Of a stretch of DNA of 64,000 bases, positions 11,055 to 33,999 are shown piece by piece. The stretch spans positions 384,001 through 448,000 of the forward strand of contig OY970223.1 of assembly GCA_963714015.1 (NCBI GenBank), given 5' to 3'. The notes beneath the pieces are model-generated. The model ran no database searches. It was not told where the DNA came from and was given only the letters and a program-made list of their open reading frames with translations. Every line of letters starts with the position of its first letter. The first letter of the stretch is position 1. The position numbers and the translations under genes were made by a program. This DNA comes from Vulcanimicrobiota bacterium (lineage in GTDB: Bacteria; Vulcanimicrobiota; Vulcanimicrobiia; Vulcanimicrobiales; Vulcanimicrobiaceae).

Positions 11055-11065
11055 GGAGTACGATC

Positions 11066-18599: not shown

Positions 18600-18926
18600 C
18601 TAAGGACCGACCACCGTCACGCTTCCGCGCATGTACGGATGCGGTTCACAGTAATAGTCGTACCGGCCGGCCTTGTGAAAGGTCGTCGTCCAGGACTTGT
18701 GCCAGTCGATCGGTCCCGAATCGATCGATTCCGCCGCTTGCGCGGTCACGGTGTGCGCTTGTTCGTCCTCGTTGACGAACGTCACCGAATCACCGACGTG
18801 AACGCGCAGGTTTTCGGGATGGTAACTATAGTCCGCGATGTGTACGACGTAATGGTGGTGGTTCGACGCACCCGGAGCGGCCGCTAGGAGCAGCACCGCG
18901 GCGATGGACGAAAGAAGTATTTTCAC
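18600..18926 (-). CDS. secreted cupredoxin (plastocyanin/amicyanin-like)
   Basis: Signal peptide; VHVGDSVTFVNED..AHTVT and YDYYCEPHPYMRG (type 1 Cu ligands H, C, H, M). Confidence 0.92.
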   Translation of the reverse strand: MKILLSSIAAVLLLAAAPGASNHHHYVVHIADYSYHPENLRVHVGDSVTFVNEDEQAHTVTAQAAESIDSGPIDWHKSWTTTFHKAGRYDYYCEPHPYMRGSVTVVGP

Positions 18927-18947: not shown

Positions 18948-20645
18948 TTAAAGAGAGAACACGTAGAGTTTGCCGCCTCGAGGCACGTGCGCGGTCAATT
19001 GCGCAGCAGGCCCGCCGAAAGCCGCGAGTCCGCCGCCATATCCGCAGTAAACGGCCACGTACTGTTTACCGTCGACCATATACGTTACGGGCGGCGCAAC
19101 GATTCCCGATTGGAGCTGCTGATGCCAGAGCACCTTACCGGTCTTTGCATCGAAGGCGTAGAAACGGCCGCCCGCATTTCCGCTAAATACCAGGCCGCTC
19201 GCTGTGTCGAGCACGCCGCCGGTCCAAGGATAATCGCTGGGGTGCGTCCACACTTTTCGCCCGGTCAGCGTGTCGATGGCGCTCAATTCGCCGAAACCGT
19301 GCGCACCGGGTTCTGCAACGGTCAGGGACACTTCGCCGAAATAGCCGAACCGTTCGCGTAAATTCCCCGTTCCGGTTACTTGCGCGCACAGGTGCAATAT
19401 CGGAACGTACGCAAGTTTCGTCACCGGACTGTAGGCCATCGGATACCAGTTCTTGCCGCCGCCCGAACTAGGGCAGTCCAGCACCGTCTTGCCGACTTGC
19501 GGGTATTTTTGCGGATCCAGTATTGCCTTGCCTTGCGAGTCGTATCCGAGAATCGTGTTGTTCTTTACAAAGGGCCGAGCGTAAATGAGTTTGCCGCTTC
19601 GGCGATCGATGGCGAAGAAGTATCCGTTGCGATCCGCGTGCACGATTGCCGGAATACGGCGTCCGCCGCGCTGCAGTGTAACGAGCACCAGTTCGTTGAC
19701 GCCGTCGTAATCCCAAGAATCGTGCGGCGTATATTGGTAATACCACTTCATCGCACCGTCCGACGGGTCGAGTGCGAGCAGCGAATCCGTAAAGAGGTTC
19801 GCGCCGGGACGCTTTCCGCCGAACCACGGACCCGGATTTCCGGTTCCCCAAAACAACGTGTTGGTCTGCGGATCGTATGAACCGGTAACCCACGTGTCGC
19901 CGCCGCCGCGTTTGTACGCACCAGCGGGCCAAGTATTTCCTCCGGGTTCGCCGGGCGACGGAACGGTCCATCGCTTCCATAACCGCCGGCCCGTCTGCGC
20001 GTCGAATGCCGCTATGAACCCACGCGCGCCGAATTCGCCTCCGGCCACTCCGGTGATAACGCGTCCGCCTACGACGAGCGGCGCGCCGGTGATGGCGTGA
20101 TCTTTTCCGACCGCGACGACTTGACGGCTCCAGACGAGGCGACCGCTTTGCGCGTCGAGCGCGATCAAACGATCGTCGATCGTTCCGAGGAAAACATCGT
20201 TTCCATAGAGTGCTACACCGCGGTTGACGACGTCGCAGCAAACCGCGCGCAGCGCTTGCATGGAGATGTTCGGCACGTATTTCCAGAGTACGCGTCCGCC
20301 GGCTGCGTCCAGCGCGATCACGGTATCCATCGGCGTGGTGATGAACATCGTGCTCCCGTTGACCACAGGCGGAGATTCGTGCCCCTGCGGCAAGCCGGTT
20401 ACGTACGTGAATGCGACGTGAAGCGATCGAACGTTGGAGGGAGTGATCCGAGTGAACGGCGCGTACGCGCGGCTGTCGTAAGAACGGCGATACATCAGCC
20501 ATCCGTCGTCGCCGCCGGCCTCGAGAAGGCGAGCGTTGGTAACACTTGGATAGTCTTGATTCGCGCGGCCGTGGAGAGCCAACGGTCCCCAGAACAGTAA
20601 GACCAGAAAACCGCAGCAGAGCAGGAAGCGCCCTATCACTTTCAA
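18948..20645 (-). CDS. PQQ-dependent dehydrogenase, methanol/ethanol family
   Basis: Vicinal CC (AVCCDVVNRGVA), GGEFGARGF, WVTGSYDP..N.LFWGTGNPGPW, YQYTPHDSWDYDGVNE, ADRNGYFF, GGKNWYP, P.TYMVDGKQYVAV; no C-terminal heme domain. Confidence 0.95.
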   Translation of the reverse strand: MKVIGRFLLCCGFLVLLFWGPLALHGRANQDYPSVTNARLLEAGGDDGWLMYRRSYDSRAYAPFTRITPSNVRSLHVAFTYVTGLPQGHESPPVVNGSTMFITTPMDTVIALDAAGGRVLWKYVPNISMQALRAVCCDVVNRGVALYGNDVFLGTIDDRLIALDAQSGRLVWSRQVVAVGKDHAITGAPLVVGGRVITGVAGGEFGARGFIAAFDAQTGRRLWKRWTVPSPGEPGGNTWPAGAYKRGGGDTWVTGSYDPQTNTLFWGTGNPGPWFGGKRPGANLFTDSLLALDPSDGAMKWYYQYTPHDSWDYDGVNELVLVTLQRGGRRIPAIVHADRNGYFFAIDRRSGKLIYARPFVKNNTILGYDSQGKAILDPQKYPQVGKTVLDCPSSGGGKNWYPMAYSPVTKLAYVPILHLCAQVTGTGNLRERFGYFGEVSLTVAEPGAHGFGELSAIDTLTGRKVWTHPSDYPWTGGVLDTASGLVFSGNAGGRFYAFDAKTGKVLWHQQLQSGIVAPPVTYMVDGKQYVAVYCGYGGGLAAFGGPAAQLTAHVPRGGKLYVFSL

Positions 20646-22894
20646 CGCACCGTCCCCCGGCCGCTGCGAATTTCGTAACGGATCGACCACGTGCGCGCAA
20701 TCGGGACTCCGAGGAATTGAACGGATCCGCTCGTCGTGGGGGAAGCGGCAGCGAACGCCGGAGACGTAAACCTTCCGGCATCCTCGTTGAACAAGTTTTG
20801 CACCGAAAACACGATCGCTCCGTTATTGACGTTGAAACGAATGCCGGCCGAAGTACTACTGTACGCCGGCAAGTGCGCTGCGTTATTTGCGTCGACGAAA
20901 GCCGTTCCTACTCCAACGGTTACCGCCGGAGTGTGGTATGAGAATATCGCGCTCGCGCGATGCAGCGGCACGTTCCAGATTTGCGAGCCTGGGATCAGCG
21001 TTGAATTCTCGCCCGCAGGGAGCGCCGGCACGCCGGCAGCCGTCGCCGCATACGTCTCATAAGCCACGGCAAGATTGAAATTAGCGCCTAACGGCGAGTT
21101 GACGGAGGCGTACCATTCCTTGTCGACGCGCAGCGGCACGGTTACGTAGTGCATGAGATACAAATCGCTTGCGGTCAGCGGGCCACCGCCGCACAAGTAA
21201 GCGTATTGCTCGTTGAGTGCTTGCAAATAGCCGGACGGCAATGCGGCGCCCCCGGCCTGGGCGGCGACAACTAGCGCATCCTTCGTCGCGTCGTAAAATC
21301 CGCCGAGCGTGACGTTCGCCCTTCGCAGGCGTCGCGTTATCGCAGCCGTGACTCCCGCGCTGTGCGGGGGGTCGGGCGTGACCTGGCTCGGGCCGGAGGC
21401 GTAAGCGGCGTGCGAGCTGCAGTCGAAATCGGCAGCTCCGGGCACGGCAAGGCGGAGCGCCTGCGCGTAATACGTTTCGATGGTCTGTGTTTGCGCGGTA
21501 TATGCGTCCCACTTTAAGCGCGTAGCGTTACTCCAAGCCGAACCTTCGATGGATGCATTGACGTGCGCAGCCGCGAATGCTCCGGTTCTCGCGCCGAACT
21601 GACCGTCCCGGTGACCGACGACGAACGGCCGGTGCGATTGTAACTCATTGAGGCCGTCGTTCCGGAGCTTTTCGAGACCGTTTCAAACGGCTGTGCGTAC
21701 GCATCGGCTATCGTTTCGGTGTTGCTGAGCGAGAGCGTTGCGCTGTTTTGCCCGAAGCGCCGCGTAAAATTCAACATGTCGTAGCGTCCAGAGTATCCGA
21801 ACCCGGTGTAGTCGGAATCGGCGTTCCTTCCGCCAGCGCATCGATGTCGTCATCGTCCGCCGAACCGGCATACGCGACGTGCAGCGCAGTCCAATCGTCA
21901 CGTCCGCGCGTTTGCGCCGCGCGAATATAGCCGTCAAGCATTCGCGTCCGCTCGGTGTTGCCCGGGCCCGAACCTTCCGCAATCCCGCCGGGATCGACCA
22001 GCGAGAGTTGTGCGTTACGCCGGTCACTGCCCAGTGCCACTGCACTCACGCGAGCGCCGCCCAACCGGAATTCCACGTCCGCAGAGGCGGCCAGCTCGTG
22101 TTCGTTCGCCGAATGATCGTAGGCCGCTCCGCTTTGATCGAAAAACGTTTGGCCCGCAAGGGCGCCTTCGCCCAAGCGATCGGAGAGCACGAAGGCATAG
22201 TTCGGCCCCGTCAGCGTTCCTTTCAGCGCTTCATCGCCTTGCGATCCGCTCAGGATCGAGAGCTGCTGCTGCGGCGTGCCCGTCGGGCTTTGAAGATGAA
22301 GGTTCGGCGTAATCGAGCCGTCATCGGCTTGATCCGGAGTGAACGATTCGACGAGATCGCTTGGAACCGTAAAACGCGATTCCTGGCCTGTAGGGAGCGT
22401 GAGCGGCGTGCCGTTCAGTTCCAACGGTCCGGATCCGCCTTCGGATGCAGAGCGGTAATTCGGCACGAAATTCAGCGAATCGGTCACGCTGCCGCTGATG
22501 ATTGCGGCGACGCTCGCGGTGTTCGTCTGCAGCGCCCGAGCGGGAGCTTGGCGACGACCGAATCAATCGTTCGCAGCCCGAACGTCAAATCGAGCGTCGG
22601 ACTGTCGGCGACTTGTACCGGCGATGCGCCGTCTTTGCGCCGTGCAAAGATCGGAGTGCCTGCGACGGTTTCGACAGTCGCCCGCCCGTCGGATCCCGTG
22701 ACGCCGATATATCGCTCGGCGTCGCGGTCCTTCGCGTAAATCGACGCCGCGGAAACGGGGTGGCCCGTCGCGTCGCGCACGAAGACTTGCACCGTCATCA
22801 GTTGCGGACTTTGAACCTGGCCTGCCGATGCGGTCCCGGCAAGAGAAGCTGCGAGAGCAACGGCGCTCAGCACGTAACAAAGAAGCCTAGCCAT
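20642..22894 (-). CDS. TonB-dependent receptor-like outer-membrane protein, several frameshifts
   Basis: Signal peptide + VRDATGHPVSAASI (carboxypeptidase-regulatory-like N-domain), plug-like segment, beta-rich body, NVPLHRAS, FVDANNAAHLPAY, SVQNLFN near the C-terminus. Confidence 0.65.
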
Positions 22895-23631
22895 AGCAAG
22901 CGTTTTCGTTACGGCGATATCCCCAAATAGCCAGTGCACCGAAGAGCGTTGCGTAAATCGCCAACGTCACGAATGCCGTCACGGTCGAGGGGTCTCCGCC
23001 AACGGCCGACCACACCAGCTCGCCGTATTGACGGGTCGGGCTGAACGGTGAAATCGCAGCGACTACCGGCGGCAGAAACTGCGGCGGAAGCCACAGCCCG
23101 CCGATGAACGCAAGCGGCAAGTAGGTGAGATCGGTAATGGGCACCGACGTCTTCGGGCTGGTCCAGTAGCCGATTGAAAGGCCCATGACGCCGAAAACGC
23201 CTCCGCCAATCAGTAGTGCAACGGCAAACCGGAGCCAAGCGACGGCGGATAACGTAACGTGTCCGAGCAGAATCGCGCAAGCAATGACCAGCGCCGCCGT
23301 CGCGGTCGCGAAGATCAATGCGCAGACGAGGCGCGATGCGACACGCACGCCGGCGCCCAGCGGCAGCGTCCGAAGATATGAATCCAGACGGACGCGCGAT
23401 CGTGCGCGATTCCGACGCCGAATTGAAAGAGCGCAACGCCGATTACCGCGAACACAGCGTACGATGCCAGCGCGTAACGAGCAGATCCGCGTTCTTCGAG
23501 TACGCCAATCCGAAGAATACGTAAAGCATCGTCGGAAGGGCAAGCGACGGAACGGAGTACGCCGGCACCCGCAGCAGTTCCAAAGTAGAAAATCGTGTAT
23601 CGAGCCAAAAGTTTCTGAGCGTCTCACTCAT
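22887..23631 (-). CDS. ABC-2 type exporter permease, frameshifted
   Basis: LLRVPAYSVPSLALPTMLYVFFG, FQFGVGIA, YLRTLP, YLPLAFIGGLWLP..FLP.VVAAISPFSPT. Confidence 0.85.
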
Positions 23632-24478
23632 GATGCCCTCCAACCATTCTCAAGAAGACGTCCTCGAGCGAAGGCGCGGCGATTTCGAGATCGCGATAAG
23701 GGATATTTCTCTAGAACAATTCGCGCACGACCGCGTCGGGGTCGGAAGTAACGATGCTGTACCGGTTTCCGGCGATCGTCGCATTGGCGATTGGCGCCGG
23801 AACGGTATCGCTGGTGAAGGAAACTTTGCGAGCGCCGGACTGCGCGGATCGCGGCGATCGGCGCGTCGTCAAGACGCGTCCACAGGACATGACTATCGCG
23901 CGCGAAGCCAACGCTTCGGCTTCCTGCAGGTAATGCGTCGTGAGCAGAACGGTTGTTCGGCTTGCGACGATTCGGAAATCGCATGCCACACGCGCGCGTC
24001 TTCTACGTCGAACTGGTTGTGGGCCGTCCAAGACGACGAGCTGCGTTTCCGGTAATGCGAGCGCCGAACTGAGCGCCGCTGCTCGCGCCGCTTAGGCCGC
24101 AACTTGGCGGCGCGCGAGTTTCGAAAGACGAAACGCTCGAGCAGCGCGCCGAGCGGCACAGGATTCCGCGCAGCGTCCAAACGTAGCCGGCGACTCGCAG
24201 ACGTCATGGCGGCCGGCAGTCGTTGTTTTGCTGCGTAACCGATCAGACGCCGCGTGCGCATGGAAAGAGGCCGCTCTCCAAAGACGCGCACGTACCGCCG
24301 TCGAACGCCAGCTCCAGCACGCTGATCGTCGTTGTCTTACCGGCGCCGTTAGGTCCAGAAGCGCTACGCGTCTCCTGCTTTAATGTCGAACGAGACGTCC
24401 TTTACGGCGGCGGCTCCGCCGTAGGATTTGTGCAAATTGCGCACGGCGATGACTGTTTCAGTTTTGAGCGATATACAC
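23628..24478 (-). CDS. ABC exporter ATP-binding subunit, heavily frameshifted
   Basis: GPNGAGKTT readable near 24325-24357; TVLLTTHYLQEAEALASR; SLEDVFLR at the end. Confidence 0.8.
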
Positions 24479-24531
24479 GGGATAGGTCCCCTTTCAGATT
24501 TAGGCGCGCGCTTTGCGCAAGCACGATCTCG

Positions 24532-24998
24532 TTATAGGTGACGTGCGCGACGATCGCCGCGCCCACCGAACGGTGAGCAGCGCAGCAGACGAAGACTAAG
24601 CCGTCGCCGGATGGTGCGACGCGCGCGGATTGACGACGCGTGCATCACGCAAATCCGGCGGTCGTCAGCAGCAGGGCAGCTGCGGACATGGCCGCGCAGT
24701 TCACGCCAGCCTCTCCAGATGATCTCTTCGGACGCCGCAACGACCGCAAGCGCCGTTCCGGTCAAGGCAAACTTTCGAAGCGTTGCGGCGTCCGCAAAGT
24801 ATGGAGGCTTCGGAAGCCGCCGAACAACACGGCGTAGAGCGCCGCGCCCATCAGAGCGCCGAGCAACAGCAGCGGCAGATCCGAAGACATCCGTGCGGTT
24901 ACGCTTGCGTCGATCGCCAAAATTGCGGCGGCGACGATCGCCTGCAGCACGAATCCGGCAAGTACGACGTTGCTCGTTGCGGCAGCATTACCGAACAC
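24532..24998 (-). CDS. CPBP/CAAX (Abi) intramembrane protease, frameshifted
   Basis: Hydrophobic ORF pieces with AASEEIIWRG (EExxxR motif). Confidence 0.6.
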
Positions 24999-25803
24999 AT
25001 GCTACGCTGTAGATGATGCCTTCGTTGACGCGTCGTTGTTGAGCATCGCGTCGATGTCTTTTTCGTAAAAACGCCGAGCGGAAGCGCGCCAAGCCCAGCG
25101 ATATCGCAGTCAGCAGAGCGTTTTGCGCAACATGGCCGGCCTCGAGGATCGTAAACGGTACGCGCGCAGGCGGTATTTGAGCGGCAGCGCCAAAACGCCG
25201 CACTTATCAGCAGAGTGATGGACGAGGTGTCAACGGCCTCCGGATAGATGCACGCTTCGGCCAGCTTGCGTAGGCGATCTCGGAGATTCGCACGAGACGG
25301 TGATCGGGCGAATCGTAGAAGTAATGCCGCACGGCAGGCCGTCGACGCGATGCACCGCGACGTAGTTGTCCAGCGGGAACAGCCGCCGCCGGAAGGCGCC
25401 GTGCGGAGAAGCTGCTGGCCGCACCGTTCTTGAGTTTGACGCGCTTGGTCACGCCGTAGGCCGAGACAAGATCGTCGCAACTTGCACGAGCGTTATCGGC
25501 TTGGAGAGAATGATTGACTTGACCTGCGCCGCTGCAAGAGGTCGCCGAGCGTCGTGTCCCCGATTCGGGCGCCGGCAGATCCACGGAGGAAGATGCCGGA
25601 TTCGCTTCGAGGACCGCAGGGTGCTAATCAGCGCGTTCGGATTGGTCTGGATCAAGTATGCATTGGTTTGACGCAACGCGCGCGAACGGTAGAGGCTGGA
25701 GGCCTCGTGATAGCACTCGGCCGGATCGTCAAACAGTCTTCTGCGCGACGTCTTCACTGCCGTAAACCAGTTCGAGTGCGTTGATCGTTCTGTATTTCGT
25801 CAT
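24990..25803 (-). CDS. SagB/ThcOx-type azoline dehydrogenase (nitroreductase fold), heavily frameshifted
   Basis: DDPAECYHEASS, LRTAPSGG..FPLDNY, LEAGHVAQNALLTAISLGL; directly downstream of YcaO. Confidence 0.8.
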
Positions 25804-25815
25804 TTTCTCTGCCTA

Positions 25816-27155
25816 TTAAGGAAAGGGATGCGGAAAATGGTTGATCTCGTGGGGGTCGAGCCGCCGTCCCAGTAAACCTTCGGACACGCCGCCGGTGTAG
25901 ATGCGATCGATTCCAAGGAAACGGTGGGCGTGCTCGGAGTCTATCTGGCACAGCTCAGGACAGAACGCTCGCACAACGCGCAGACCGAGTTGCCGCAAGT
26001 CGGGGGCGGTGACGTCTACGGCGTAGACTTCCATTCCGCGCTGTCCCAAGCGGTTTACGATCGCGTCAATCTGCTCGCACACGGAGGGCCCGCTTACCGG
26101 CGGGACTTCCCTCACGTGCCGGCTCTGCGTCGCCGAGTCCATAAACGCCGACTCTTCGCCATGCGAGCCAAAAGCGTGCAGCGCCACATGGTCTTCGAAA
26201 TCGCGGACTTGCGAAAAATCGCCGTCGGGCTCGGTCCAATCAGGATTGAGAAAGCGCATTTGCCGCGCCCAGGCATATGTCTGGAATGCTTCGCGCACCG
26301 CTTTGCCGGCAGCGTCGATCATGGTTCGCGCGCTCGCGGCGCCGGTCGCGAGTTGCACATAGCCGGTTTCGTCGCGCACGAGCGCCATCGCACTGGGCAC
26401 GTCGCAGAAAGGCGACAAGTCTACGACGGTGTAGCGCAACCCCTTGACGTTATAGTACGTATCGTGATTGAGTTCCATCTCGGCAACTCCGGTACAATCG
26501 ACGATCGGCATCGAGAGCCGCGTGTACCACATCAGCAAAAACGCGTCGCGTTCGACCAGTTCGTATAAGCCCGACAGCAGCGCCTCTTCAAACGTGGGCG
26601 CGCAGGCAACGCCGGAACTCGTGCTGTAGACTACGCGCGGCTCTTCCGGCCGGCGATGTTCGGGCAGATAGCAAAACGCCGAAGGGATCCAAACGGCCTC
26701 ACCCGATCGCAGGTTGGTTCCACGCACCCAGTGCGCCGGCGTGTCGTCGTCGAAGGCGACGAACTTGTCGGTCGTTTCGTATTGCGCTTTCGAAAAGAAG
26801 TTCAAATGCGCGGTAGGCACATGCGGGCCTTCCAGCTCGCGCGCCGTCGAAAAGTGGAGTCTTCGAGCGGAACGTACGAGAGCGAGTACCGCTCTGCCGC
26901 CTCTCCAAGCGCAGCGGCCAACGCCCGGTCGCGGTGCGGATGAATTCCGCCGCTATACAGCGGAACCGAGGCGCCGATGGTCAACTGCGAATCCGCCGCC
27001 AAGCACGTGACGTGCCACATGCGCGGATCGCTGGGCTGGGCCATCATGTGAAAGCGCAGATGCGCGATGCCGGTATACGGCGAGAGCAATTTCTTGAGGA
27101 CCGGCAGCGATTGCTCGAGCGGGGTCACGCCGCTGGGCCGCTTCAACGTATCCAT
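25816..27155 (-). CDS. YcaO cyclodehydratase (azoline-forming type), one frameshift near 26830
   Basis: ALAAALGEAAERYS, STSSGVAC, LLSGLYELVERDAF, KAVREA, VDVTAPDL..LGL.VVR, C-terminal PHPFP (PxPxP motif). Confidence 0.95.
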
Positions 27156-27157
27156 GA

Positions 27158-28104
27158 TTAGCTCTCGTACCAGGGCGACGGGGCGGCAACGTTCACGCGG
27201 CCGGAACATTCTGGACAGCGCGGTACGCGTAAGACGTCGTGCGATGAGATCCCGCGATCGCCGAGCGGCGCAAGCGAAATCAGCGTTCCGACCAGCGCTG
27301 GATCGGATGCACCGATCCAGCGCAACGCGTACGTGACGGCGAGGCCGGCAGCCATCATATCAATGGGCATGCATTGCTCGAACGCCGCCTCGGCTTCGTC
27401 GAGCTCAGATACTCCGCGGGGTACTTCACATTGGAAGCGCGCCGCAGTTGAAAGCAGGCGTAACACGCGGTTTCGCCCGGAACGAACAGCGGCCCGATTG
27501 CGGAGAACCGTCCATCGTATGGAAGAATCTGCAGCCACGGCTGCTTTTTGAGGATCGCGGCCTTGTTGATTTCCCGCAGGCGGCTCAACTCGCCCGTCGC
27601 CGGAGCGACGATTGCGAGATCGACTTCCTCGTCGTCAAAACTGGAGAAACTCGAGGTTTGCGCGCCCTCTATTCCGGAGCACAAGAGTCCCCGGAGAACC
27701 TCGCTCGCAGCATTGCTGGACCCTATGACGGAGATGCGCGCGCTTGCGAGGCGATCGCGGACGATTTCGGTCGAGCTTGCACCCCCGATCGATGAGAAGA
27801 AGACGGAAGTGCGCGTCAGCTTATCCTTTTCTGCGGGAAGCGTTCCGTCCATGAGCAGATCGTAGCGTTCCAGCAAACCGATCGCGGCATTGACGACCTG
27901 CGCATCGCTTCCGGAAATCGAAGCGATGTCTTCGACGCTGTGCCGCCCGTCCAGCACGGGCAGCAACTTTGGAAGGATCGCGCCGGCAGCGCGGCCCTTG
28001 AGGCAGATGACCGAGTCGCCGTAGTGGAAGATTACTTGGTCGTCATGCTTGTAGACGCGATACCAGGGTTTGAAGGCTTTGGTTGGCGCAATAGGATCCG
28101 TCAC
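27158..28104 (-). CDS. TOMM leader-binding / E1(ThiF)-like cyclodehydratase partner with N-terminal RRE, frameshift near 27410
   Basis: LLPVLDGRHSVEDI (RRE wHTH), PWLQI, IGPLFVPGETACYACFQLRR, VLRVPRCPECS; GAGGAG RBS before GTG 28104. Confidence 0.88.
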
Positions 28105-28152
28105 GTTATAACTCCTCGGTGAAACGGGGTATAAGAGAGCTGACACCCGGGC

Positions 28153-28201
28153 CCCGGGGGACGCGAGTTTGCCGCGATAATCGACAAACTTGTGCCCCCG
28201 G
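28153..28201 (-). terminator. stem-loop between precursor and modification genes
   Basis: Imperfect inverted repeat CCGGGGGCACAAGTTTGTCG / CGGCAAACTCGCGTCCCCCGG; no U-tract. Confidence 0.6.
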
Positions 28202-28218
28202 TTGAAGTGTGCTGCTTC

Positions 28219-28356
28219 CTAGAGAAGCGACACTTTGCAGGTTGTGGACGACGTGCACGTGCTGCTGGCAGCCAGACCCGTTGCATCTTCGTCACCGCCG
28301 ATTTCGGTTACGCTTACGTCGAGCAGTTGGTCGATGTTCTCGGTGATTTGTTCCAT
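28219..28356 (-). CDS. RiPP precursor peptide MEQITENIDQLLDVSVTEIGGDEDATGLAA-SSTCTSSTTCKVSLL (45 aa)
   Basis: AAGGAG RBS; acidic leader; Ser/Thr/Cys-rich C-terminus; sits directly upstream of the RRE/YcaO genes. Confidence 0.9.
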   Translation of the reverse strand: MEQITENIDQLLDVSVTEIGGDEDATGLAASSTCTSSTTCKVSLL

Positions 28357-28426
28357 GGTTTTCTCCTTCAGTTGTGTTGTGGGGTTTTTTACAGGCCGGA
28401 CGCTCGGAGCGCGTTGATCCTGCATC

Positions 28427-29075
28427 TTATTGCGACAATTCCCACTGGTAGTTGATGGGAATGTCGGTGTACGTGTGCACGATTTCATGCACGTCGAAAT
28501 GCGTAGCGCTAAAAGCGCCGTTGAGAAAAGCGAGTCGTCCGTTGACCTTGACGTCTTCGCCCACGGTGAATCCATGCGCGATCACGATGTTAGAGTACGT
28601 TCCCGATACCGTCAGGCTGGCGCGATCGCCGGCATTCTGCGAGACGACTTTGACCGGCACGTTTTTCCACTCGGTTTGCGAAACTTTGACCGGCACGACT
28701 GCGCTCCAGACGGCATGCGCAGGCTCTAAGGTTGGCGATATTCGTTCGCAGCACGAGCGGGATCGTGTTGTAAATCGTTACGATGTCGGACGGCGTTCCG
28801 GGCGATACGATCTCGCCGTCGGCGCTTACGGAAGCGTCGAGCGTATTGGTGGTTCCGTCCGTTCGGCGATAGGAAACCACTGCGCGATTCGAACCGGACT
28901 CGGCGACATGCAGAGGACTGGAGAGTGTCGTCGCTCCTCCGTCGGGCGAAACGTGCCCGACATAGTGGAAGTTCAGTGCGACCGAGTCGCCGGCGGCGTC
29001 TACGGGCGGACGCAGCGCTTGCGGCGCGGCGGTTCCGAGAAGAGCCGCGGCCAAAAGTACGGGAGAGATTCTCAT
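28427..29075 (-). CDS. secreted hypothetical protein (paralog 3 of triad), frameshift near 28720
   Basis: MRISPVLLAAALLG signal peptide; joins the end of ORF 28590-30053 with ORF 28427-28696. Confidence 0.6.
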
Positions 29076-29082
29076 GATGACG

Positions 29083-29771
29083 CTACTCCTGTTCCGGCGC
29101 GGTGCGCGCCATATGCCACTCCAGCGCATCGTTTGCGTCTGAGGTCCGGCGTTAACGAGTTCACTGGCGGCAAAATCGCAGCGATCGAATCCGGCCGGCG
29201 CGACGCGCAGCGCGAATTGGGCGGTGACGTCGATTGGAACGGTATATCCGGCGTAGGACGCAGTAAGCGTCTGCGAACCGGTCCCCTGAATGACCGCTCC
29301 GCCCGACCCGGCCGAGACGATCTTCAGTTGCACGGGCAGATAGCCAATCTGCCCGGAGTCACCGGTCTCGATCGGAACCTGTCCGTTCCACGTCGCACCC
29401 GGCTGCAGCAAAGGAGGCGCGCTCGCAAGCAGACCCGCAACCGTGTTGAATGAATCGATGCGGTTGCCGGCATCGCCCGAATCGATCGTCCCGTCGGCGG
29501 CGAGTTTGCCTGCCGCACTGGCGTTGTCGGTCGACGATTTTCCGGCCGTGACGATCCGAACCGAGCGCGCGTTTCCCACAGTAATCGTCGCGGTGCGATC
29601 GAAGACTACGCGCTGACCGTTCCAAAACGATCCGTCAAACTGCAGGTCGTACGAAATCGAGACTCCCGGCGAAGACGGTAAAAGTATGTGTGGGGCGCCG
29701 GCGACCGAACCTGCCGCGGTTGCGAGCAACCCGGCGAGCGTTGCGCTCGCGCCTCGCGTGAGGGCGTTCAT
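29083..29771 (-). CDS. secreted hypothetical protein (paralog 2 of triad)
   Basis: MNALTRGASATLAGLLATAAG signal peptide; ATG overlaps the upstream stop; 3' end approximate. Confidence 0.6.
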
Positions 29772-30511
29772 GAGTTCTTTCCTTTCAGATTGACTGTCCA
29801 GTGATACACGCCGCCGCCCGCCGGTACGTTGCGGCGCCCGTAGGTCTCGCGAGCGTACAAAGCCGCGTTCGTCAGCGTGCCGGCACGAAAAACCGCATTG
29901 ACGGAGACGGCGATGTCCGCAGTCAACGGGCTTCCGGCCGCCCCCGCTTGCAATCGGCGTTCGCCTTGTGCCGTAAGCGTTTGAACGTTGCCGTCCTCGC
30001 GCACGGAAACTCTGACCGGAACTGGCGCCGTCAGCGTATTGGATATCCAGCACATGGTCGTTGCGCGCCAGGTCGAACCGGCGACCGTCGAATCCGAATG
30101 CCCGAGCAGCGAGAGCAGCTCGTTGTAATCGAAGACTTGATCCGCAACACCTGAGGCGGTGTCGGGAACGACGATTCCAGCCGAGCCGAAATGCGCTTTT
30201 ATTGCGTTCGAGGTGCGGCTTTCGCGCTTCACGCCCAGATGCAGAATCTCGTCCTGCGTTACGCGGTCGTTCCGCCCGCTGACGATTACGGCGCCCTGCG
30301 CAATCTGCTTGAGATCGAGCAGGCCGAGATAGCGCTCGGAGTAACCGCCATAATCGGCTGAAAAGTCGAACACGTACGAAGCCGACGTCCCAGTGCCGCT
30401 CGGTAGAATATGCAGGCCGCTCGTTGGGAGCGCGACGGAGCCGCCGAACGTCCAGGTGAGGACGGCGATGCCGGCGATCCGGCCGAGGCGGTGGGCGCGC
30501 GAGTTTTTCAC
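29768..30511 (-). CDS. secreted hypothetical protein (paralog 1 of triad)
   Basis: GTG 30511; hydrophobic N-terminus; beta-rich body. Confidence 0.6.
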   Translation of the reverse strand: MKNSRAHRLGRIAGIAVLTWTFGGSVALPTSGLHILPSGTGTSASYVFDFSADYGGYSERYLGLLDLKQIAQGAVIVSGRNDRVTQDEILHLGVKRESRTSNAIKAHFGSAGIVVPDTASGVADQVFDYNELLSLLGHSDSTVAGSTWRATTMCWISNTLTAPVPVRVSVREDGNVQTLTAQGERRLQAGAAGSPLTADIAVSVNAVFRAGTLTNAALYARETYGRRNVPAGGGVYHWTVNLKGKNS

Positions 30512-30518
30512 AGCAAGC

Positions 30519-30653
30519 CTACGGGTTCGGCTCGACCGTGTCGAACGGCCGCAGCACATGACCGGCGTGTCCGGTGTACGGATGGACCGTGAACTGCGCT
30601 TGGGCGGCGTGCGGGTGGACCAGCAGTAAGAATAAGAACAGAAACGCTTGCAT
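30519..30653 (-). CDS. small secreted His-rich peptide MQAFLFLFLLLVHPHAAQAQFTVHPYTGHAGHVLRPFDTVEPNP (44 aa; absent from ORF track)
   Basis: AAGGAG RBS 8 nt before ATG 30653; hydrophobic stretch + AQA signal-peptidase motif; stop lies 7 nt before the next gene. Confidence 0.65.
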   Translation of the reverse strand: MQAFLFLFLLLVHPHAAQAQFTVHPYTGHAGHVLRPFDTVEPNP

Positions 30654-30778: not shown

Positions 30779-33400
30779 CTAAATGCCGTGGGCGCGGGCG
30801 CACTCGGCGGCATCTTGCCGCGTGCGGCAGTGCAGTTTGCGCAGAATGGATGCAACGTGGGCGTTCACCGTATAGGTGCTGCGGCCGAGATCGCGGGCGA
30901 TTTTCGCGTTCGTCGAGCCGCGCGCAATCTCGCGCAAGATGGTAACTTCCGTTTTGGTCAGCGCGGAAAGCGCCGAGACGGCAGATTCTAATCCGGGCAT
31001 CGGCAGCGCCGTCAAGAGGTTTGCGATGCCGCCCAGACGGGACTCACGTAAGAGCGAAACCGCGGGTTCCATGCTCTCTCCGGCCTCCACGTGAAGGTAT
31101 GCCGCGCGGCTCGCCTTCATTACCGCTCGTTCCACCGAGCCCAAATCGCGGCCAACCTGCTCGACGGGACTAAGGATCGCGTTGGCGCGCGGAAGTTGAT
31201 GCATGATGATGCAGGCCAAGGTACAGTAGGCGTGCGCGAATGCAAATCGCCGGCGCTCGTCGGACCTTCCTCGCAGCCCGCGTTGCGTCAAAGCGAGCGC
31301 ATGCGAAATGGCTTCGTCGGCATCTTCACGCTGTCCGCAGGCCGACGCATAGAGCGCAATCTCCGCCCAGCGAAGCCCGCGCCGTCCATCGCTGATCTGC
31401 GACTGCGCGGTGCCCCACACGCAATCCAATGCGCCGCGGAAACGGCCCAACCACGCGGCGCGCATCGCATCCGCCGACGCCATCGCAGAAGAACTGAGCT
31501 CGCCGTGTCCCGGATGCTCGAGTATTCTGCTGCGCAGTTCGTCCAGATCGTCGCCCTCTCCGAACTCCGTTCGCAGCGCATAAGTACCGGCGAGGGCCGA
31601 TGCGGCAAGAAACACGTCTCCCGCCTTCTCCGCGCACTCGATCATCCTCTCAAGTTCCGCGAGCGCTTTCGCGGTGTCGTATCCGAAGCCGAGCCAGATC
31701 GAATACCGTACGCTGTGGCAGCGCGCCGCCAGCGCGTACAAGTCGTGCAGTTTCGCCAAATCGATGGCCTTTGACGAAAGCGCCATGGCTTGCTGTGATT
31801 CGCCGGCCGCGTAGGCGACGAAACTGGCCTGATGGTACAAGGTCGCTCGAACGGGAGTCGAATCGGAGCGGTTTGCGAGCTGGAGGGCCTGCTCAGCGTA
31901 GTCTTTCGCTTCGGCAAGACGCCCCGTTATGGCGCAGCCCGTGGCGATCGTTCCCATCATGAGCGCATCGCCGTCCGCCACGAGCGCTTTGGCGCTGGTC
32001 GCTCGAATCAGCGCATCGATAACTTTTTCCAGCCGCACCCGGTCGACGGATCGATTTCTGCGAATCAATTCGAGCGCGTACCGGTAGTGAGCGGCGAGCC
32101 GCTCCGAATCGTCCGCGGCCGCTTCGACTGCCCGTTCGAACAACGCATCGCAACGGGCGAAGTCCGCCGATTTGGAAGCCAGCACGGCGCGAAGCAGCAA
32201 CAGGGCGGTAGGTTGCTGTTCGGCGCGATCGCTTTCGGCGTCGAGCGCCGCTTGAACGATGTCGGAGCGTCCGGAATCGAGAAGCGCCATTCCGTTGCGC
32301 ACGAGCAGCTCGCGAATCTCTTGGCGCGCACCCGCGCGAATGTAGAGAACCAGCGCTTCCGAGATCCGGGCTCCGCGCTCCAGCCGTTTTGCCCCCTTCA
32401 CGGAGGAAGCACGAACCGCCGCTTTTCCGCGCAACGATAATCTGCTCTGCAAGAAGTCGGCGAAGAGACCGTCGCAGTGCAGGACCGCGTGGGATTCGAC
32501 GTGCAGAAACGGCACGTAGCGCCGCAAATCGTCGACTAATGCCTGCGCATCTTCCCATTCCTCCAAAAGCAGGTCGAACTCAATTGCCTTGTAGTGGCAG
32601 ATATCGAACAAGAACTGCTGTTGCCGCTCAGTCAGATTTTGGAAGACTTGCTGCGCGAGGTACTCGTAGATCATCTCGCGAGATCCGGCGTTCGATTCAA
32701 CGGCCGAAACACTCGGCGTCATGCGATTCGCGCGAACCGCCAGCACGAAGCCGGCCGGCCATCCACCGGTTAACCGATAAGCTTCCCGCGCGGCCTGTTC
32801 CCCTTCGGCGCCGATCAGGCGGCGCGCGCATTCCTGCGCCTCTTCCTCCGTGAAGCGGAGCATACGCTCGTCGATGACCGAGCGCAGCCGATTGTACGCG
32901 GTCCACGAAGCGATAGGAAAGCGGCTTGCACGCCGCGCGGCAAGTATCCAACGGATATTCGACGGCGCCGCGTCCAGAAGCATCATCAGGAACTTCTCGA
33001 CGTCCGAATCCGCTCCGGTGAAGTGCAGATCGTCGATATGGATATATCCGGAGTAGCCTTGCAGATGCTCTCGAATGCTGGCAACGAGCCATTCCACCGG
33101 CGGTGCGTTGACATTCGCGTGCGCGCTGTCGTACACCATCTGCAGCCCGGGCGCGACCGGGAGCAGAGAATCGATGAATCCCCGCACAAAACCGGCGAGG
33201 CTGACTCCCTCGAACGTGACGCCGTATCGAATCCACGATGCTTGGCTGGCATCGAGGTACTGACGAATCGCGGTTGATTTGCCGAAACCGGCGGGCGCCG
33301 CTACAACGGCGATCGGATAGGCGGTTGCATCCGCGAGGGCATTGAGAATTCGGCGTCGCTCTATGATGTCGCCACCAGTGATTTCTATGCTTCCAATGCC
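30779..33400 (-). CDS. MalT-like STAND ATPase-TPR-LuxR HTH transcriptional regulator (start uncertain)
   Basis: IERRRIL, VVAAPAGFGKST, IDDLH, LRFTEEE, TGGWPAG, IYEYLAQQVF, LTKTE..IL..IARG.TNAKIA..LGRSTYTVNAHVASILRKL. Confidence 0.9.
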   Translation of the reverse strand, partial: GIGSIEITGGDIIERRRILNALADATAYPIAVVAAPAGFGKSTAIRQYLDASQASWIRYGVTFEGVSLAGFVRGFIDSLLPVAPGLQMVYDSAHANVNAPPVEWLVASIREHLQGYSGYIHIDDLHFTGADSDVEKFLMMLLDAAPSNIRWILAARRASRFPIASWTAYNRLRSVIDERMLRFTEEEAQECARRLIGAEGEQAAREAYRLTGGWPAGFVLAVRANRMTPSVSAVESNAGSREMIYEYLAQQVFQNLTERQQQFLFDICHYKAIEFDLLLEEWEDAQALVDDLRRYVPFLHVESHAVLHCDGLFADFLQSRLSLRGKAAVRASSVKGAKRLERGARISEALVLYIRAGARQEIRELLVRNGMALLDSGRSDIVQAALDAESDRAEQQPTALLLLRAVLASKSADFARCDALFERAVEAAADDSERLAAHYRYALELIRRNRSVDRVRLEKVIDALIRATSAKALVADGDALMMGTIATGCAITGRLAEAKDYAEQALQLANRSDSTPVRATLYHQASFVAYAAGESQQAMALSSKAIDLAKLHDLYALAARCHSVRYSIWLGFGYDTAKALAELERMIECAEKAGDVFLAASALAGTYALRTEFGEGDDLDELRSRILEHPGHGELSSSAMASADAMRAAWLGRFRGALDCVWGTAQSQISDGRRGLRWAEIALYASACGQREDADEAISHALALTQRGLRGRSDERRRFAFAHAYCTLACIIMHQLPRANAILSPVEQVGRDLGSVERAVMKASRAAYLHVEAGESMEPAVSLLRESRLGGIANLLTALPMPGLESAVSALSALTKTEVTILREIARGSTNAKIARDLGRSTYTVNAHVASILRKLHCRTRQDAAECARAHGI

Positions 33401-33528
33401 GTTAGGCGGCCCTGATAAGGCCTGCTGCACCACGGTCCTCCAAGCGCGGCGCCGGCTCCCGCCGGCGTCGAAACGCTGTAAATGGCACTTTGCCGTCAAG
33501 CGCATGCGACCCTTCGCCGGCACTGCAT

Positions 33529-33999
33529 CTAATCCAAAGCGAGTTCCATGAAGGTTGGGCAGCGATAATCGACTTCGCCGTACGGCTCGCATTCTCGAAA
33601 TCCCAGCGCTCGATACAGTTGGTATGCCGCCGTCAGCCTCGTCTTGTCGGTGTCCAGGACCAACCGACGAATCTTCGCGTTCCGCGAGAATTCGACTGCA
33701 CGGGACATGAGCTTGCGGGCCAATCCGGCGCCTCGGAACTCGGGACGAACGTAGAGTTTACGGATCACCGCGGTCGATGGATCGAGCCGCACCAGCGCGA
33801 CGCAGCCTGCGGCTTCGTCGTCGACTGTAGCGACCAGCGCCAGATTCTGGGGACCGTAGAACGCCGGCAGATCTTGCAACTCGTTTTCAAAGGTTCGATG
33901 GCGCAAGTCCGGGTCCAAGCTGTCCTCGTACTCCAACGCAAGGTTCCGAAAGTGCTCGAAACTGCGCTCGTCTTGGGCAGCGCACAAAAAATCGTTCAC
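33529..33999 (-). CDS. GNAT family N-acetyltransferase
   Basis: AGCVAL, IRKLYVRPEFRGAGLARKL, LVLDT, AYQLYRALGF. Confidence 0.9.
   Translation of the reverse strand: MNDFLCAAQDERSFEHFRNLALEYEDSLDPDLRHRTFENELQDLPAFYGPQNLALVATVDDEAAGCVALVRLDPSTAVIRKLYVRPEFRGAGLARKLMSRAVEFSRNAKIRRLVLDTDKTRLTAAYQLYRALGFRECEPYGEVDYRCPTFMELALD

What the first reader, a model, noticed from the sequence alone, without database searches (positions are those of the whole stretch)
28219..28356. Precursor peptide with predicted core SSTCTSSTTCKVSLL
Seen: hidden at the end of a longer spurious ORF, with its own AAGGAG RBS. The acidic leader (LLDVSVTEIGGDED) ends in GLAA-S, followed by ten consecutive Ser/Thr/Cys residues in a near-tandem pattern (SSTCT / SSTTC) and a KVSLL tail. 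Knowledge: the junction resembles the GA-S cleavage site of thiopeptide and lactazole precursors. Inference: up to 11 modifiable residues, and KVSLL could be a follower removed by the CAAX protease.
Basis: partly seen in the sequence, partly recalled or inferred. Interest (0 to 1): 0.8.

Follow-up and report, generated by a model that had tools for sequence, protein, structure and literature searches.

The report
Conserved azole-peptide precursor gene, broken cluster
This short gene really does encode the precursor of a ribosomally made, enzyme-modified peptide of the linear thiazole/oxazole type; it belongs to a small unnamed family found next to the same enzyme set in related bacteria, but here many of those enzyme genes read as frameshifted.

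Summary
A 45-codon ORF (28356->28219, minus strand) follows AAGGAG plus a 6-nt spacer. It is nested in a spurious 118-aa ORF and ends in ten consecutive Ser/Thr/Cys plus KVSLL.

It is not a chance ORF. Nine database peptides (42-49 aa) share the leader motif (E/D)LLDVxV and an invariant A-SS...SS core start, with a variable aliphatic tail.

In six other genomes of the same bacterial family, such peptides lie in one syntenic cluster. Its order is LuxR regulator, secreted ~260-aa protein, precursor, E1-like/RRE protein (C), YcaO (D), nitroreductase-type dehydrogenase (B), Rce1-like CPBP protease (E), ABC ATPase and permease, and a ~800-aa outer-membrane-type protein. A PQQ dehydrogenase follows in 4 of 6 clusters with visible ends. 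A full-length LanB dehydratase is present in 3 of 7.

This is the streptolysin-S/plantazolicin-type linear azol(in)e peptide (LAP) gene layout, here with optional goadsporin-like dehydration. It is not a thiopeptide: no pyridine synthase, and precursor models score below cut-off.

The CAAX protease is real but broken here. Its known role in such clusters fits leader removal better than follower removal.

In this assembly C, D, B, E, the ABC ATPase, the outer-membrane-type gene and LanB are all frameshifted, B/E/ABC densely. Whether this is assembly error or decay is open.

The parts
28219..28356 (-). Precursor peptide gene (45 aa): leader residues 1-30, predicted core SSTCTSSTTCKVSLL
   Evidence: sequence; conserved family; unique in window and genome
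28363..28368 (-). Shine-Dalgarno AAGGAG, 6 nt before the ATG
28154..28201 (-). Stem-loop in the 114-nt spacer between the precursor gene and the C gene. No T-run, so not a canonical terminator
   Evidence: 126-nt stretch, MFE -43.2 kcal/mol, z -2.1; 6 of 200 shuffles fold as well; one search found no terminator-like site
27158..28104 (-). C protein: N-terminal leader-binding (RRE-like) plus E1-like domain. Likely start GTG 28104 after GAGGAG. One deletion-type frameshift near 27403
   Evidence: TIGR03882 positions 2-49 and 67-122 on two frames; TruD/LynD/MusD residues 34-231; G376 homologue spans both frames
25816..27155 (-). D protein: azoline-forming YcaO ending in ...HFPHPFP. One 1-nt deletion-type frameshift near 26860
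   Evidence: TIGR03604 237.2 bits, cut-off 219.25; tblastn of P0012: residues 1-98 and 100-446 in two frames
24990..25803 (-). B protein: SagB/nitroreductase-type dehydrogenase, readable only by hopping frames about a dozen times
   Evidence: 12 frame changes between 24811 and 25816; weak HMM hits; collinear HSPs to intact B proteins of G034, G016, G376 in three frames
24440..24990 (-). E protein: Rce1-like CPBP ('CAAX') protease remnant, in at least 3 frame segments
   Evidence: HSPs to the intact E of G376/G294 at 24777-24706, 24710-24648, 24977-24531; those intact proteins hit PF02517. Not detected directly by PF02517 here
23636..24486 (-). ABC transporter ATPase, fragmented over three frames
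22887..23627 (-). ABC-2 type permease
   Evidence: PF01061 E 4.2e-4; 40-46% identical to the permeases of G376, G294, G235
20657..22939 (-). About 800-aa outer-membrane-type protein (CarboxypepD_reg/Big_1-like N-terminus, TonB-receptor-like C-terminus), in three frames
   Evidence: 33-38% identical to the syntenic 798- and 841-aa proteins of G376 and G294
18948..20690 (-). Periplasmic PQQ-dependent dehydrogenase, intact; recurs at the end of this cluster type
   Evidence: 54-57% identical to the cluster-linked copies in G376, G294, G332; best match in 30 relatives 42%
18600..18926 (-). Cupredoxin with signal peptide; its stop abuts the LanB start codon
15800..18599 (-). Full-length LanB-type dehydratase (Lant_dehydr_N + Lant_dehydr_C) broken by 3-4 frameshifts (17924, 16747, about 16402-16414, and one more in the C-terminal domain near 15955-15982)
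   Evidence: P0056/P0057 align collinearly across four frame segments
13381..15660 (-). SARP-type (BTAD + AAA) regulator
   Evidence: a 32%-identical homologue follows the cluster in G354
28427..30559 (-). Two or three paralogous secreted ~260-aa proteins of unknown family; conserved cluster members
   Evidence: no family; homologues between LuxR and the precursor/C genes in G376, G294, G431, G332, G354
30779..33592 (-). LuxR-family regulator with AAA and TPR regions (937 aa, intact)
   Evidence: homologues head the clusters of G376, G431, G332, G284

Best explanation
The ORF encodes the precursor (A) of a linear azol(in)e-containing peptide (LAP/TOMM).

Inferred pathway:
1. The conserved leader motif (E/D)LLDVxV is bound by the N-terminal RRE-like domain of the E1-like C protein.
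2. The YcaO D protein uses ATP to cyclodehydrate Cys, and probably some Ser/Thr, in the ten-residue block SSTCTSSTTC to azolines.
3. The FMN-type B dehydrogenase oxidises these to azoles.
4. In the clusters that carry it, this one included, a full-length LanB with no LanC and no pyridine synthase probably converts remaining Ser/Thr to Dha/Dhb. The invariant Ser-Ser pairs are candidates.
5. The leader is removed after the invariant Ala30, most plausibly by the membrane CPBP protease.
6. The product leaves through the ABC transporter and the cluster's outer-membrane-type protein.

Shown: the gene, its conservation, its synteny, and the identity of the C, D, B, E, ABC and LanB families. Inferred: every chemical step, the cleavage site, and which residues are modified.

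In this assembly most of the enzyme genes are frameshifted. The cluster is either locally mis-assembled or inactive in this strain.
For: Peptide family:
- One search found 4 homologues (E 1.5e-17 to 3.6e-5). One search found 6 representatives.
- Alignment A2 has L11, L12, V16, G27, A30, S31, S32, S36 and S37 invariant in 10 peptides.
- Alignment A3 adds 4 peptides from genomes G376, G294 and G235.

Co-location with YcaO on metagenome contigs, inferred from equal contig lengths: 947304, 159371, 47147 and 3535 nt.

Direct synteny by tblastn:
- C-D-B-E-ABC-permease-OM protein was found in G376, G294, G431, G332 and G354 (rearranged order). G235 has the same set, but E was not queried there.
- A Cys/Ser/Thr-rich precursor was found in 6 of 6.

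Enzyme identities:
- YcaO: TIGR03604 237.2 bits on the window fragment and 274.5 on the 80%-identical P0012.
- C: hits the TruD/LynD/MusD N-terminal halves.
- B: PF00881 in the syntenic genes and collinear remnants here.
- E: PF02517 in G376/G294 and a remnant here.

LanB:
- Full-length here and intact in G376 (PF04738 + PF14028). Also present in G332.
- A 62%-identical LanB lies on a 48097-nt contig, the same length as that of a 72%-identical YcaO.
- No LanC was found in the genome. There is only one Lant_dehydr_C locus.

[quoted passage not shown] It also states that goadsporin and coryneazolisin clusters add lanthipeptide-like dehydratases without a [4+2] enzyme.
Against: - No product or modification has been observed.
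- In this assembly C and D each carry one frameshift. B, E and the ABC ATPase carry many. LanB carries 3-4. The pathway as written could not run.
- LanB was not found in the stretches examined around the clusters of G294, G235 and G354. No LanB from the 947304-, 159371- or 47147-nt contigs appeared. Dehydration is therefore not a family-wide step.
- The only precursor-model similarity is to thiopeptide-type models, and it is below cut-off. ESM Atlas leads point the same way at scores of 0.81, too low to count.
- PF02517 and TIGR03605 do not reach significance on the window itself.
- The metagenome contigs could not be read. Co-location there rests on equal contig lengths.
Confidence: 0.75

Rival explanations
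1. The cluster is a decaying relic in this strain. The frameshifts are real mutations, the precursor gene merely survives, and no product is made here. This concerns functional state, not identity, so it can hold alongside the main reading.
For: - Frameshifts occur in C, D, B, E, the ABC ATPase, the OM protein and LanB.
- LanB shows insertion-type shifts at 17924 and 16747 as well as a deletion-type one, so the changes are not of one technical kind.
- The locus lies beside fragmented conjugation genes. VirD4/TraG and VirB4-type ORFs are split at 1.8-9.6 kb. Such an island is where decay is common.
- Genome completeness is 89.6% for a single contig.
Against: - Frameshift density is very uneven. 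There are 2 in 2.3 kb of C+D, but about a dozen in 0.8 kb of B and more in E/ABC. Neutral decay of one operon should be more even.
- The dense stretch 23584-25816 has 26.0 homopolymer runs of 3 or more per kb, against a genome mean of 37.7 (sd 4.8). That is the 0.7th percentile of 2.2-kb windows, as expected if bases were dropped from runs by long-read assembly.
- The genome has about 19 such frame-hopping patches.
- Read through the shifts, D is 79-92% identical to P0012 with no in-frame stops.
- Flanking genes of 1.7-2.8 kb are intact.
Confidence: 0.35
2. It is a true thiopeptide precursor. LanB makes Dha residues and a [4+2] enzyme joins two of them into a pyridine macrocycle, which removes the leader, as the first reader's GA-S comparison implies.
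For: - 8 of 10 family members give sub-threshold hits to TIGR03892 (best E 3.8e-4), and 1 hits NF033400.
- ESM Atlas ranks 2-3 are thiazolylpeptide-type clusters (0.81, a lead only).
- LanB, YcaO and a dehydrogenase are all present.
- Ser is invariant at core positions 1-2 and 6-7.
Against: - Only one PF14028 locus exists in the whole genome, and it is the C-terminal domain of LanB.
- No second such gene lies next to the intact LanB of G376.
- TIGR03892 scores below cut-off (18.6 vs 25), and 0 of 10 hit a Pfam thiopeptide-precursor model.
- The core has only about 10 modifiable residues. Ser1-Ser6/7 would give a far smaller ring than known thiopeptides (from general knowledge, not tested).
- A CPBP protease and cytolysin-type layout are present instead.
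Confidence: 0.05
3. The peptide is the substrate of LanB alone, giving a dehydrated, lanthipeptide-like product. On this reading the YcaO machinery either acts on another peptide or is irrelevant.
For: The leader motif LLDVxV recalls LanB-recognised leaders (recalled, not tested). ESM Atlas rank 11 is a gallidermin/nisin cluster (0.79).
Against: - The peptide gene directly precedes C-D in G000, G294, G431, G332, G354 and G235.
- LanB is missing from the examined stretches of three of these clusters.
- No LanC was found in the genome.
- No other candidate precursor was found in the window.
Confidence: 0.03

Closest known systems
Streptolysin-S-type ('cytolysin') LAP clusters and plantazolicin-type LAPs
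   Same: A short precursor with a contiguous block of about 10 heterocyclisable residues. Discrete C (E1-like) and D (YcaO) proteins, a B dehydrogenase, a CaaX-like/CPBP protease and an ABC transporter in one operon (Cox 2015, PMC4603692, passages read).
   Different: - No precursor-family model for these classes matched. The only NCBIfam hits at E<=1 were thiopeptide-type.
- The core is much shorter than I recall for streptolysin S.
- The host is apparently diderm, and the cluster adds an ~800-aa outer-membrane-type protein, secreted ~260-aa proteins, often a PQQ dehydrogenase and sometimes LanB.
- Membership of the D protein in the cytolysin similarity group was not tested.
- Nothing here bears on cytolytic activity.
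Goadsporin and coryneazolisin-type LAPs (azoles plus dehydroalanines, no macrocycle)
   Same: YcaO cyclodehydratase and dehydrogenase together with a lanthipeptide-type dehydratase. No LanC and no [4+2] enzyme (Cox 2015 passages).
   Different: - LanB here is a single full-length protein. Cox 2015 describes the goadsporin dehydratase as split into two proteins and its cyclodehydratase as fused.
- LanB is present in only 3 of 7 clusters of this type examined.
- No sequence comparison with goadsporin genes was made.
Thiopeptide (thiazolylpeptide) precursors, NCBIfam TIGR03892
   Same: An acidic leader with a hydrophobic/acidic motif, a small residue before a Ser-initiated Cys/Ser/Thr-rich core, and LanB + YcaO + dehydrogenase in the neighbourhood. 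8 of 10 members give weak hits.
   Different: All hits are below the cut-off (best E 3.8e-4). No pyridine synthase was found. A CPBP protease is present for leader removal. The core is too short for known macrocycle sizes (recalled).
Dehydrazoles (carnazolamide; Pei, Zhu and Nair 2023, PMC10676384)
   Same: A peptide carrying both azoles and dehydrated Ser. Dehydration there depends on neighbouring azoles (abstract and section 6 read).
   Different: Dehydrazoles use a LanM-type DUF4135 dehydratase and a long NHLP leader. Here the dehydratase is LanB-type and the leader is 30 aa.

Membership tests
TOMM / linear azol(in)e-containing peptide (LAP) precursor | Short ORF adjacent to, and co-oriented with, a cyclodehydratase (E1-like C + YcaO D) | tested here: met
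   The peptide stop at 28219 is 114 nt before the C start at 28104. D follows. The arrangement is the same in G294, G431, G332, G354 and G235.
TOMM / linear azol(in)e-containing peptide (LAP) precursor | C-terminal core rich in Cys/Ser/Thr, with a conserved leader | tested here: met
   The core has 10 of 10 consecutive C/S/T. The leader motif and core start are conserved in 10 and in 14 peptides.
TOMM / linear azol(in)e-containing peptide (LAP) precursor | YcaO of the azoline-forming (SagD) type above the curated cut-off, with a Pro-rich C-terminus | tested here: met
   TIGR03604 scores 237.2 against a cut-off of 219.25 on the window fragment, and 274.5 on P0012. The C-terminus is ...HFPHPFP. 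That PxPxP marks TOMM YcaOs is recalled.
TOMM / linear azol(in)e-containing peptide (LAP) precursor | FMN-dependent SagB-type dehydrogenase in the cluster | tested here: inconclusive
   On the window only weak hits were found: TIGR03605 E 0.03 with 2 stops and PF00881 E 0.031. Collinear HSPs to intact B proteins fall in three frames. The syntenic genes in G376, G294, G034 and G016 hit PF00881 at 2e-15 to 7e-24.
TOMM / linear azol(in)e-containing peptide (LAP) precursor | Azol(in)e rings in the mature product | not testable with these tools
   Needs mass spectrometry of the product.
Thiopeptides | Precursor matches a thiopeptide precursor model above its cut-off | tested here: not met
   TIGR03892 scores 18.6 bits against a cut-off of 25. 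8 of 10 members hit at E<=1, best 3.8e-4. 0 of 10 hit a Pfam thiopeptide-precursor model at E<=10.
Thiopeptides | Dedicated [4+2] pyridine synthase (SpaB_C-like) in addition to the dehydratase | tested here: not met
   PF14028 matches one locus in the whole genome, the C-terminal domain of LanB. There is none beside the intact LanB of G376.
Goadsporin-like dehydrated LAPs | LanB-type dehydratase with the YcaO system, no LanC, no [4+2] enzyme | tested here: met
   LanB was seen in 3 of 7 clusters of this type (G000, G376, G332). It was not found in the examined stretches of G294, G235 and G354. G431's contig is too short.
Goadsporin-like dehydrated LAPs | Dehydratase split into glutamylation and elimination proteins; fused cyclodehydratase (as described in Cox 2015) | tested here: not met
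   LanB is one full-length gene. C and D are separate genes.
CaaX-box substrate of an Rce1-like protease (follower removal) | Rce1-like/CPBP protease encoded in the cluster | tested here: met
   PF02517 E 1.3e-15 and 3e-14 for the syntenic genes of G376 and G294. The window holds a frameshifted remnant that the model does not detect directly.
CaaX-box substrate of an Rce1-like protease (follower removal) | Cys at position -4 followed by aliphatic-aliphatic-X at the C-terminus | tested here: not met
   The last Cys is 6 from the end in the window peptide. In the 14 aligned members it lies between 5 and 14 residues from the end, never 4; one has no Cys at all. The tails differ in sequence. The CaaX definition is recalled.

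The most novel reading that the evidence does not exclude
The cluster type is more than a routine LAP. A full-length LanB working without a cyclase dehydrates the invariant Ser-Ser pairs between azole triplets. A dedicated periplasmic PQQ-dependent dehydrogenase, with a cupredoxin or cytochrome c partner, then oxidises the exported peptide or a co-substrate.

This dehydrogenase is co-inherited with the cluster in 4 of 6 cases. It is 54-57% identical between genera, but at most 42% identical to anything in 30 close relatives.

That would be a PQQ-enzyme tailoring or maturation step outside the cytoplasm. I found no mention of one: no paper in the library holds 'PQQ-dependent', 'YcaO', 'cyclodehydratase' and 'biosynthetic gene cluster' together.
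Probability: 0.12. Interest if true: 0.7.

Novelty: new member of a known kind. Interest (0 to 1): 0.45.

Why it matters
It defines a small, unnamed precursor family. No curated model reaches its cut-off, and no paper in the searched library holds its core strings.

It also defines a conserved LAP gene-cluster type in a little-studied, mostly metagenome-known bacterial family. For genome mining it offers:
- a leader motif,
- a probable cleavage site,
- intact sister clusters suitable for expression,
- a set of natural core variants: SSTCTSSTTC, SSCCSSSSCCCC, SSCSCSCSCS, poly-Ser and poly-Cys.

The recurrent full-length LanB without a cyclase and the co-inherited PQQ dehydrogenase are the unusual parts.

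For this genome the practical message is a caution. The cluster reads as broken, and a 2.2-kb stretch looks like uncorrected long-read sequence.

Tried and rejected
- Pattern scans of genome contigs with alignments A1 and A2 found no relative.
- The metagenome scan gave one locus, L006. It is a chance match inside the antisense frame of other genes.
- The look-up of sequencing runs: none was listed for 22900-28400. Read laying could therefore not be used to test the frameshifts.
- Complex prediction, C protein residues 15-250 with the peptide alignment: no verdict (scores 0.23 and 0.11, mark 0.32). This is not evidence either way.
- A home-made CPBP profile built from four paralogues of this genome gave only E about 10-20 on the window fragments. 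It was superseded by the syntenic intact proteins.
- Direction-of-shift statistics:
  - ORF-overlap junctions show a modest excess of deletion-type junctions (200 vs 121 at overlaps of 100 nt or more).
  - The Viterbi path shows none (1411 vs 1460) and is too noisy on short segments.
  - My by-eye reading of about 10 consecutive same-direction shifts in B is only partly backed by HSP frames. I do not rest on it.
- The 'split LanB' reading from Pfam pieces was rejected after tblastn showed one full-length gene.
- A TonB-dependent receptor label for 20642-22939 rests on weak hits only. I call it an outer-membrane-type protein.
- Of the 8 non-self hits, only G376 and G294 hold up. G025 is ambiguous (family-like core, no clear start). 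G063, G389, G103, G309 and G117 look like chance matches inside longer frames.
- G033 and G159 have the ~800-aa protein without this cluster.
Full report
OBSERVATION

On the minus strand an ATG at 28356 opens a 45-codon frame that stops at TAG 28221-28219: MEQITENIDQLLDVSVTEIGGDEDATGLAASSTCTSSTTCKVSLL. AAGGAG (28368-28363) lies 6 nt upstream.

The frame is the tail of a 118-aa ORF starting at 28575. That extension overlaps the 3' end of the preceding gene in another frame, and every homologue starts at the short position.

Residues 31-40 are ten consecutive Ser/Thr/Cys. It is the only SD-preceded ORF of 25-100 aa in the window with such a tail. It is the only match to its core pattern in the 3.56-Mb single-contig genome. 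An identical 45-aa protein from this genome is already in the protein collection under NCBI (P0059).

THE PEPTIDE FAMILY

A word-indexed search of 5.8 billion proteins found four homologues of 44-48 aa, with E 1.5e-17 to 3.6e-5. A profile search of 1.84 billion representatives found six at E<=0.001.

In the ten-member alignment A2:
- L11, L12, V16, G27, A30, S31, S32, S36 and S37 are invariant.
- The leader carries (E/D)LLDVxV(T/S).
- The core reads A-SS-xxx-SS-xx-(C/S), where x is Thr, Cys or Ser.
- The last 4-7 residues are aliphatic but unconserved: KVSLL, KIEL, KVVVV, SIVEAD, SVVAM and others.

Model matches are weak:
- 8 of 10 members give sub-threshold hits to NCBIfam TIGR03892 (thiazolylpeptide-type bacteriocin), best E 3.8e-4. 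The window peptide scores 18.6 bits against a cut-off of 25.
- 0 of 10 hit a Pfam thiopeptide-precursor model.
- ESM Atlas gave only leads below 0.9.
- No paper in the searched library holds four 8-letter strings from the core.

THE LOCAL CLUSTER

Everything from 33.6 kb down to 13.4 kb is on the minus strand. In reading order:

- A 937-aa LuxR/AAA/TPR regulator.
- Two or three secreted ~260-aa paralogues without any family.
- The precursor.
- A 114-nt spacer with a stem-loop (the 126-nt stretch folds at -43.2 kcal/mol, z -2.1).
- The C protein. It probably starts at GTG 28104 after GAGGAG. TIGR03882/TIGR03603 hits fall on two frames. There is similarity to residues 34-231 of TruD/LynD/MusD.
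- The YcaO D protein. TIGR03604 scores 237.2, above its cut-off. It ends in HFPHPFP.
- A region that codes only if the frame is changed repeatedly (25.8-23.6 kb).
- An ABC-2 permease.
- An ~800-aa outer-membrane-type protein in three frames.
- An intact PQQ-dependent dehydrogenase and a cupredoxin.
- LanB.
- A SARP-type regulator.

tblastn with the 883-aa homologue P0056 shows that LanB is one full-length gene (N- and C-terminal domains). It is broken at 17924, 16747 and about 16402-16414; a further frame change near 15955-15982 splits its C-terminal domain. It is not a split LanB.

The genome has no LanC. It has only this one Lant_dehydr_C locus.

RELATED CLUSTERS

YcaO homologues of 57-80% identity exist only in metagenome data. 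Four of them sit on contigs whose lengths equal those of contigs carrying family peptides: 947304, 159371, 47147 and 3535 nt. This is an inference, because the contigs could not be read.

Searches of whole genomes:
- Among 400 other genomes of the phylum, the peptide profile gave 8 hits (9 of 401 counting G000). Two are convincing, G376 and G294.
- Among 321 genomes of the family (G000 included), the YcaO query found 14 at E<=1e-40. Counted without G000, eight are above 33% identity.

I fetched DNA around eleven of these hits and mapped cluster proteins by tblastn.

The order C-D-B-E-ABC ATPase-permease-~800-aa protein is present in G376, G294, G431 and G332, and in rearranged order in G354. 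G235 has the same set, but E was not queried there. All genes there are in single frames.

A precursor was found in 6 of 6:
- G431: two tandem copies, ...IASSTCTSSTCCSVVVV and ...IASSTCTSSTCCKIIVV.
- G376: ...AASSCCSSSSCCCCHSVF. Here the gene is at the far end, on the other strand.
- G332: ...AASSCCCSSSCCCCSSGGSNQSLSA.
- G294: ...IASSCSCSCSCSVVIEVNVS.
- G354: a run of eight Cys.
- G235: two poly-Ser peptides with the leader EDLLDL.

Accessory and flanking genes:
- The gene between B and the ABC ATPase is an Rce1-like CPBP protease in G376 and G294 (PF02517 E 1.3e-15 and 3e-14).
- A LuxR homologue heads the clusters of G376, G431, G332 and G284.
- A secreted ~260-aa homologue lies beside the precursor or C gene in G376, G294, G431, G332 and G354.
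- The PQQ dehydrogenase follows in G000, G376, G294 and G332. It does not in G235 or G354. G431's contig ends first.
- LanB flanks the cluster in G000, G376 (intact, divergent from LuxR) and G332. It was not found in the stretches examined for G294, G235 and G354.

Two more distant LAP clusters in the same family, G034 and G016, have only A, C, D and B, with poly-Cys cores.

WHAT IT IS

The layout A, C, D, B, CaaX-like protease and ABC transporter, with a core of ten or more contiguous heterocyclisable residues, matches what Cox et al. 2015 describe for cytolysin (streptolysin-S-type) LAP clusters. The same paper describes goadsporin and coryneazolisin clusters as LAPs that add lanthipeptide-type dehydratases and lack a [4+2] enzyme (PMC4603692, passages read).

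The best reading is therefore a LAP precursor:
1. The leader is bound by the C protein.
2. Azolines are made by YcaO and oxidised by B.
3. Where LanB is present, as here, Ser/Thr are optionally dehydrated.
4. The leader is removed after the invariant Ala30, plausibly by the CPBP protease.
5. The product is exported by the ABC transporter and the outer-membrane-type protein.

Only gene identities, conservation and synteny are shown. The chemistry is inferred.

A thiopeptide is unlikely because no pyridine synthase exists and the precursor models stay below threshold.

The tail is the least conserved part, and no member has a CaaX-like spacing.

THE FRAMESHIFTS

- D has one 1-nt deletion-type shift near 26860.
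- C has one near 27403.
- LanB has 3-4, two of them insertion-type.
- The ~800-aa gene has at least two.
- B, E and the ABC ATPase are far worse. A codon-usage Viterbi path changes frame 12 times between 24811 and 25816, and calls 23584-24810 non-coding.
- Intact B, E and ABC proteins from relatives align to this stretch in collinear pieces in all three frames.

Several points bear on whether this is technical:
- The 2.2-kb stretch has 26.0 homopolymer runs of 3 or more per kb, against 37.7 (sd 4.8) genome-wide, which is the 0.7th percentile. This fits bases dropped from runs.
- The genome has about 19 such patches, and this one is the second densest.
- Completeness is 89.6% for a closed contig.
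- Yet 46 ORFs of 1000 aa or more are intact.

I think local assembly error is the more likely cause for the dense stretch. Real decay cannot be excluded, above all for LanB. No sequencing run could be listed to test it.

THE PQQ DEHYDROGENASE

The window's copy is 54-57% identical to the copies at the ends of the G376, G294 and G332 clusters, which belong to other genera. It has no match above 42% in 30 close relatives, including both genomes of its own genus. That tally includes the unpublished G010.

It thus travels with the cluster. It carries a signal peptide and is followed by a cupredoxin here. In G294 it is fused to a cytochrome c domain.

Whether it acts on the peptide is unknown. No paper in the library combines the four terms searched.

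CONTEXT

The window begins with fragmented type IV secretion/conjugation genes (1.8-13 kb). It also holds a DNA methylase, an SNF2 fragment, and tRNA-Glu and tRNA-Met at 56.8-57.5 kb. The cluster may therefore lie on an integrative element in this genome.

VERDICT

This is a real, conserved precursor of a known RiPP class (LAP) and a new family within it. Its cluster type has two unusual accessory genes. In this assembly the cluster is broken.

The count of ~800-aa-protein relatives (119 of 151 genomes) includes eight genomes flagged unpublished. No other claim rests on them.

Noticed in passing
window 18948-20690 and 18600-18926; L018 10560-12158; L019 518-2077; L054 13972-15570: A periplasmic PQQ-dependent dehydrogenase sits at the end of this LAP cluster type in 4 of 6 clusters with visible ends. 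Here it has a cupredoxin partner; in G294 it has a fused cytochrome c. It is 54-57% identical across genera but at most 42% identical to anything in 30 close relatives. Its function in the cluster is unknown.
   Followed up: partly
window 28427-30559; L018 1371-2168; L019 10837-11676; L054 4339-5133; L055 4265-5104: Secreted ~260-aa proteins with no Pfam or NCBIfam family are conserved next to the precursor or C gene in every cluster examined. This window holds two or three paralogues, one apparently frameshifted near 28727. They could be immunity or accessory proteins.
   Followed up: partly
window 23584-25816 (genome 407.5-411 kb): A 2.2-kb stretch with very dense frame changes and a marked deficit of homopolymer runs. 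About 19 such patches exist genome-wide; the densest is at genome 775.5-786.5 kb, and I did not check what lies there.
   Followed up: partly
window 1834-12958: A type IV secretion/conjugation gene set: VirD4/TraG, VirB11-type ATPase, TrbC/VirB2 pilin, VirB4/TrbE, TrbL/VirB6, TrbI/VirB10, and an S26 signal-peptidase domain. Several are split between overlapping ORFs. This suggests an integrative conjugative element next to the cluster.
   Followed up: no
window 56799-56873 and 57472-57543: tRNA-Glu(TTC) and tRNA-Met(CAT) lie beyond a block of unassigned ORFs, a DNA methylase (45628-46305) and an SNF2 fragment (48479-49444). This could be an island boundary.
   Followed up: no
L007 8395-8598 (G034) and L008 10316-10474 (G016): Two other, minimal LAP clusters (A, C, D, B only) occur in genomes of the same family. 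Their poly-Cys cores are ...GCCCCCCCKEVNFKS and ...LCCCTTCCWHSKPKVS, and their YcaOs are about 30% identical to this one. The G034 cluster lies directly downstream of an RNA polymerase beta-prime-like gene.
   Followed up: partly
window 37017-39586: A second LuxR-family AAA regulator, split by a frameshift into 126-aa and 741-aa ORFs. Next to it are a two-domain cupredoxin (35089-36081), a TTHB210-like protein and a DUF5069 protein.
   Followed up: no
L018 12249-12407 (G376): In G376 the precursor gene is not upstream of C. It lies at the far end of the cluster, after the PQQ dehydrogenase and on the opposite strand.
   Followed up: no
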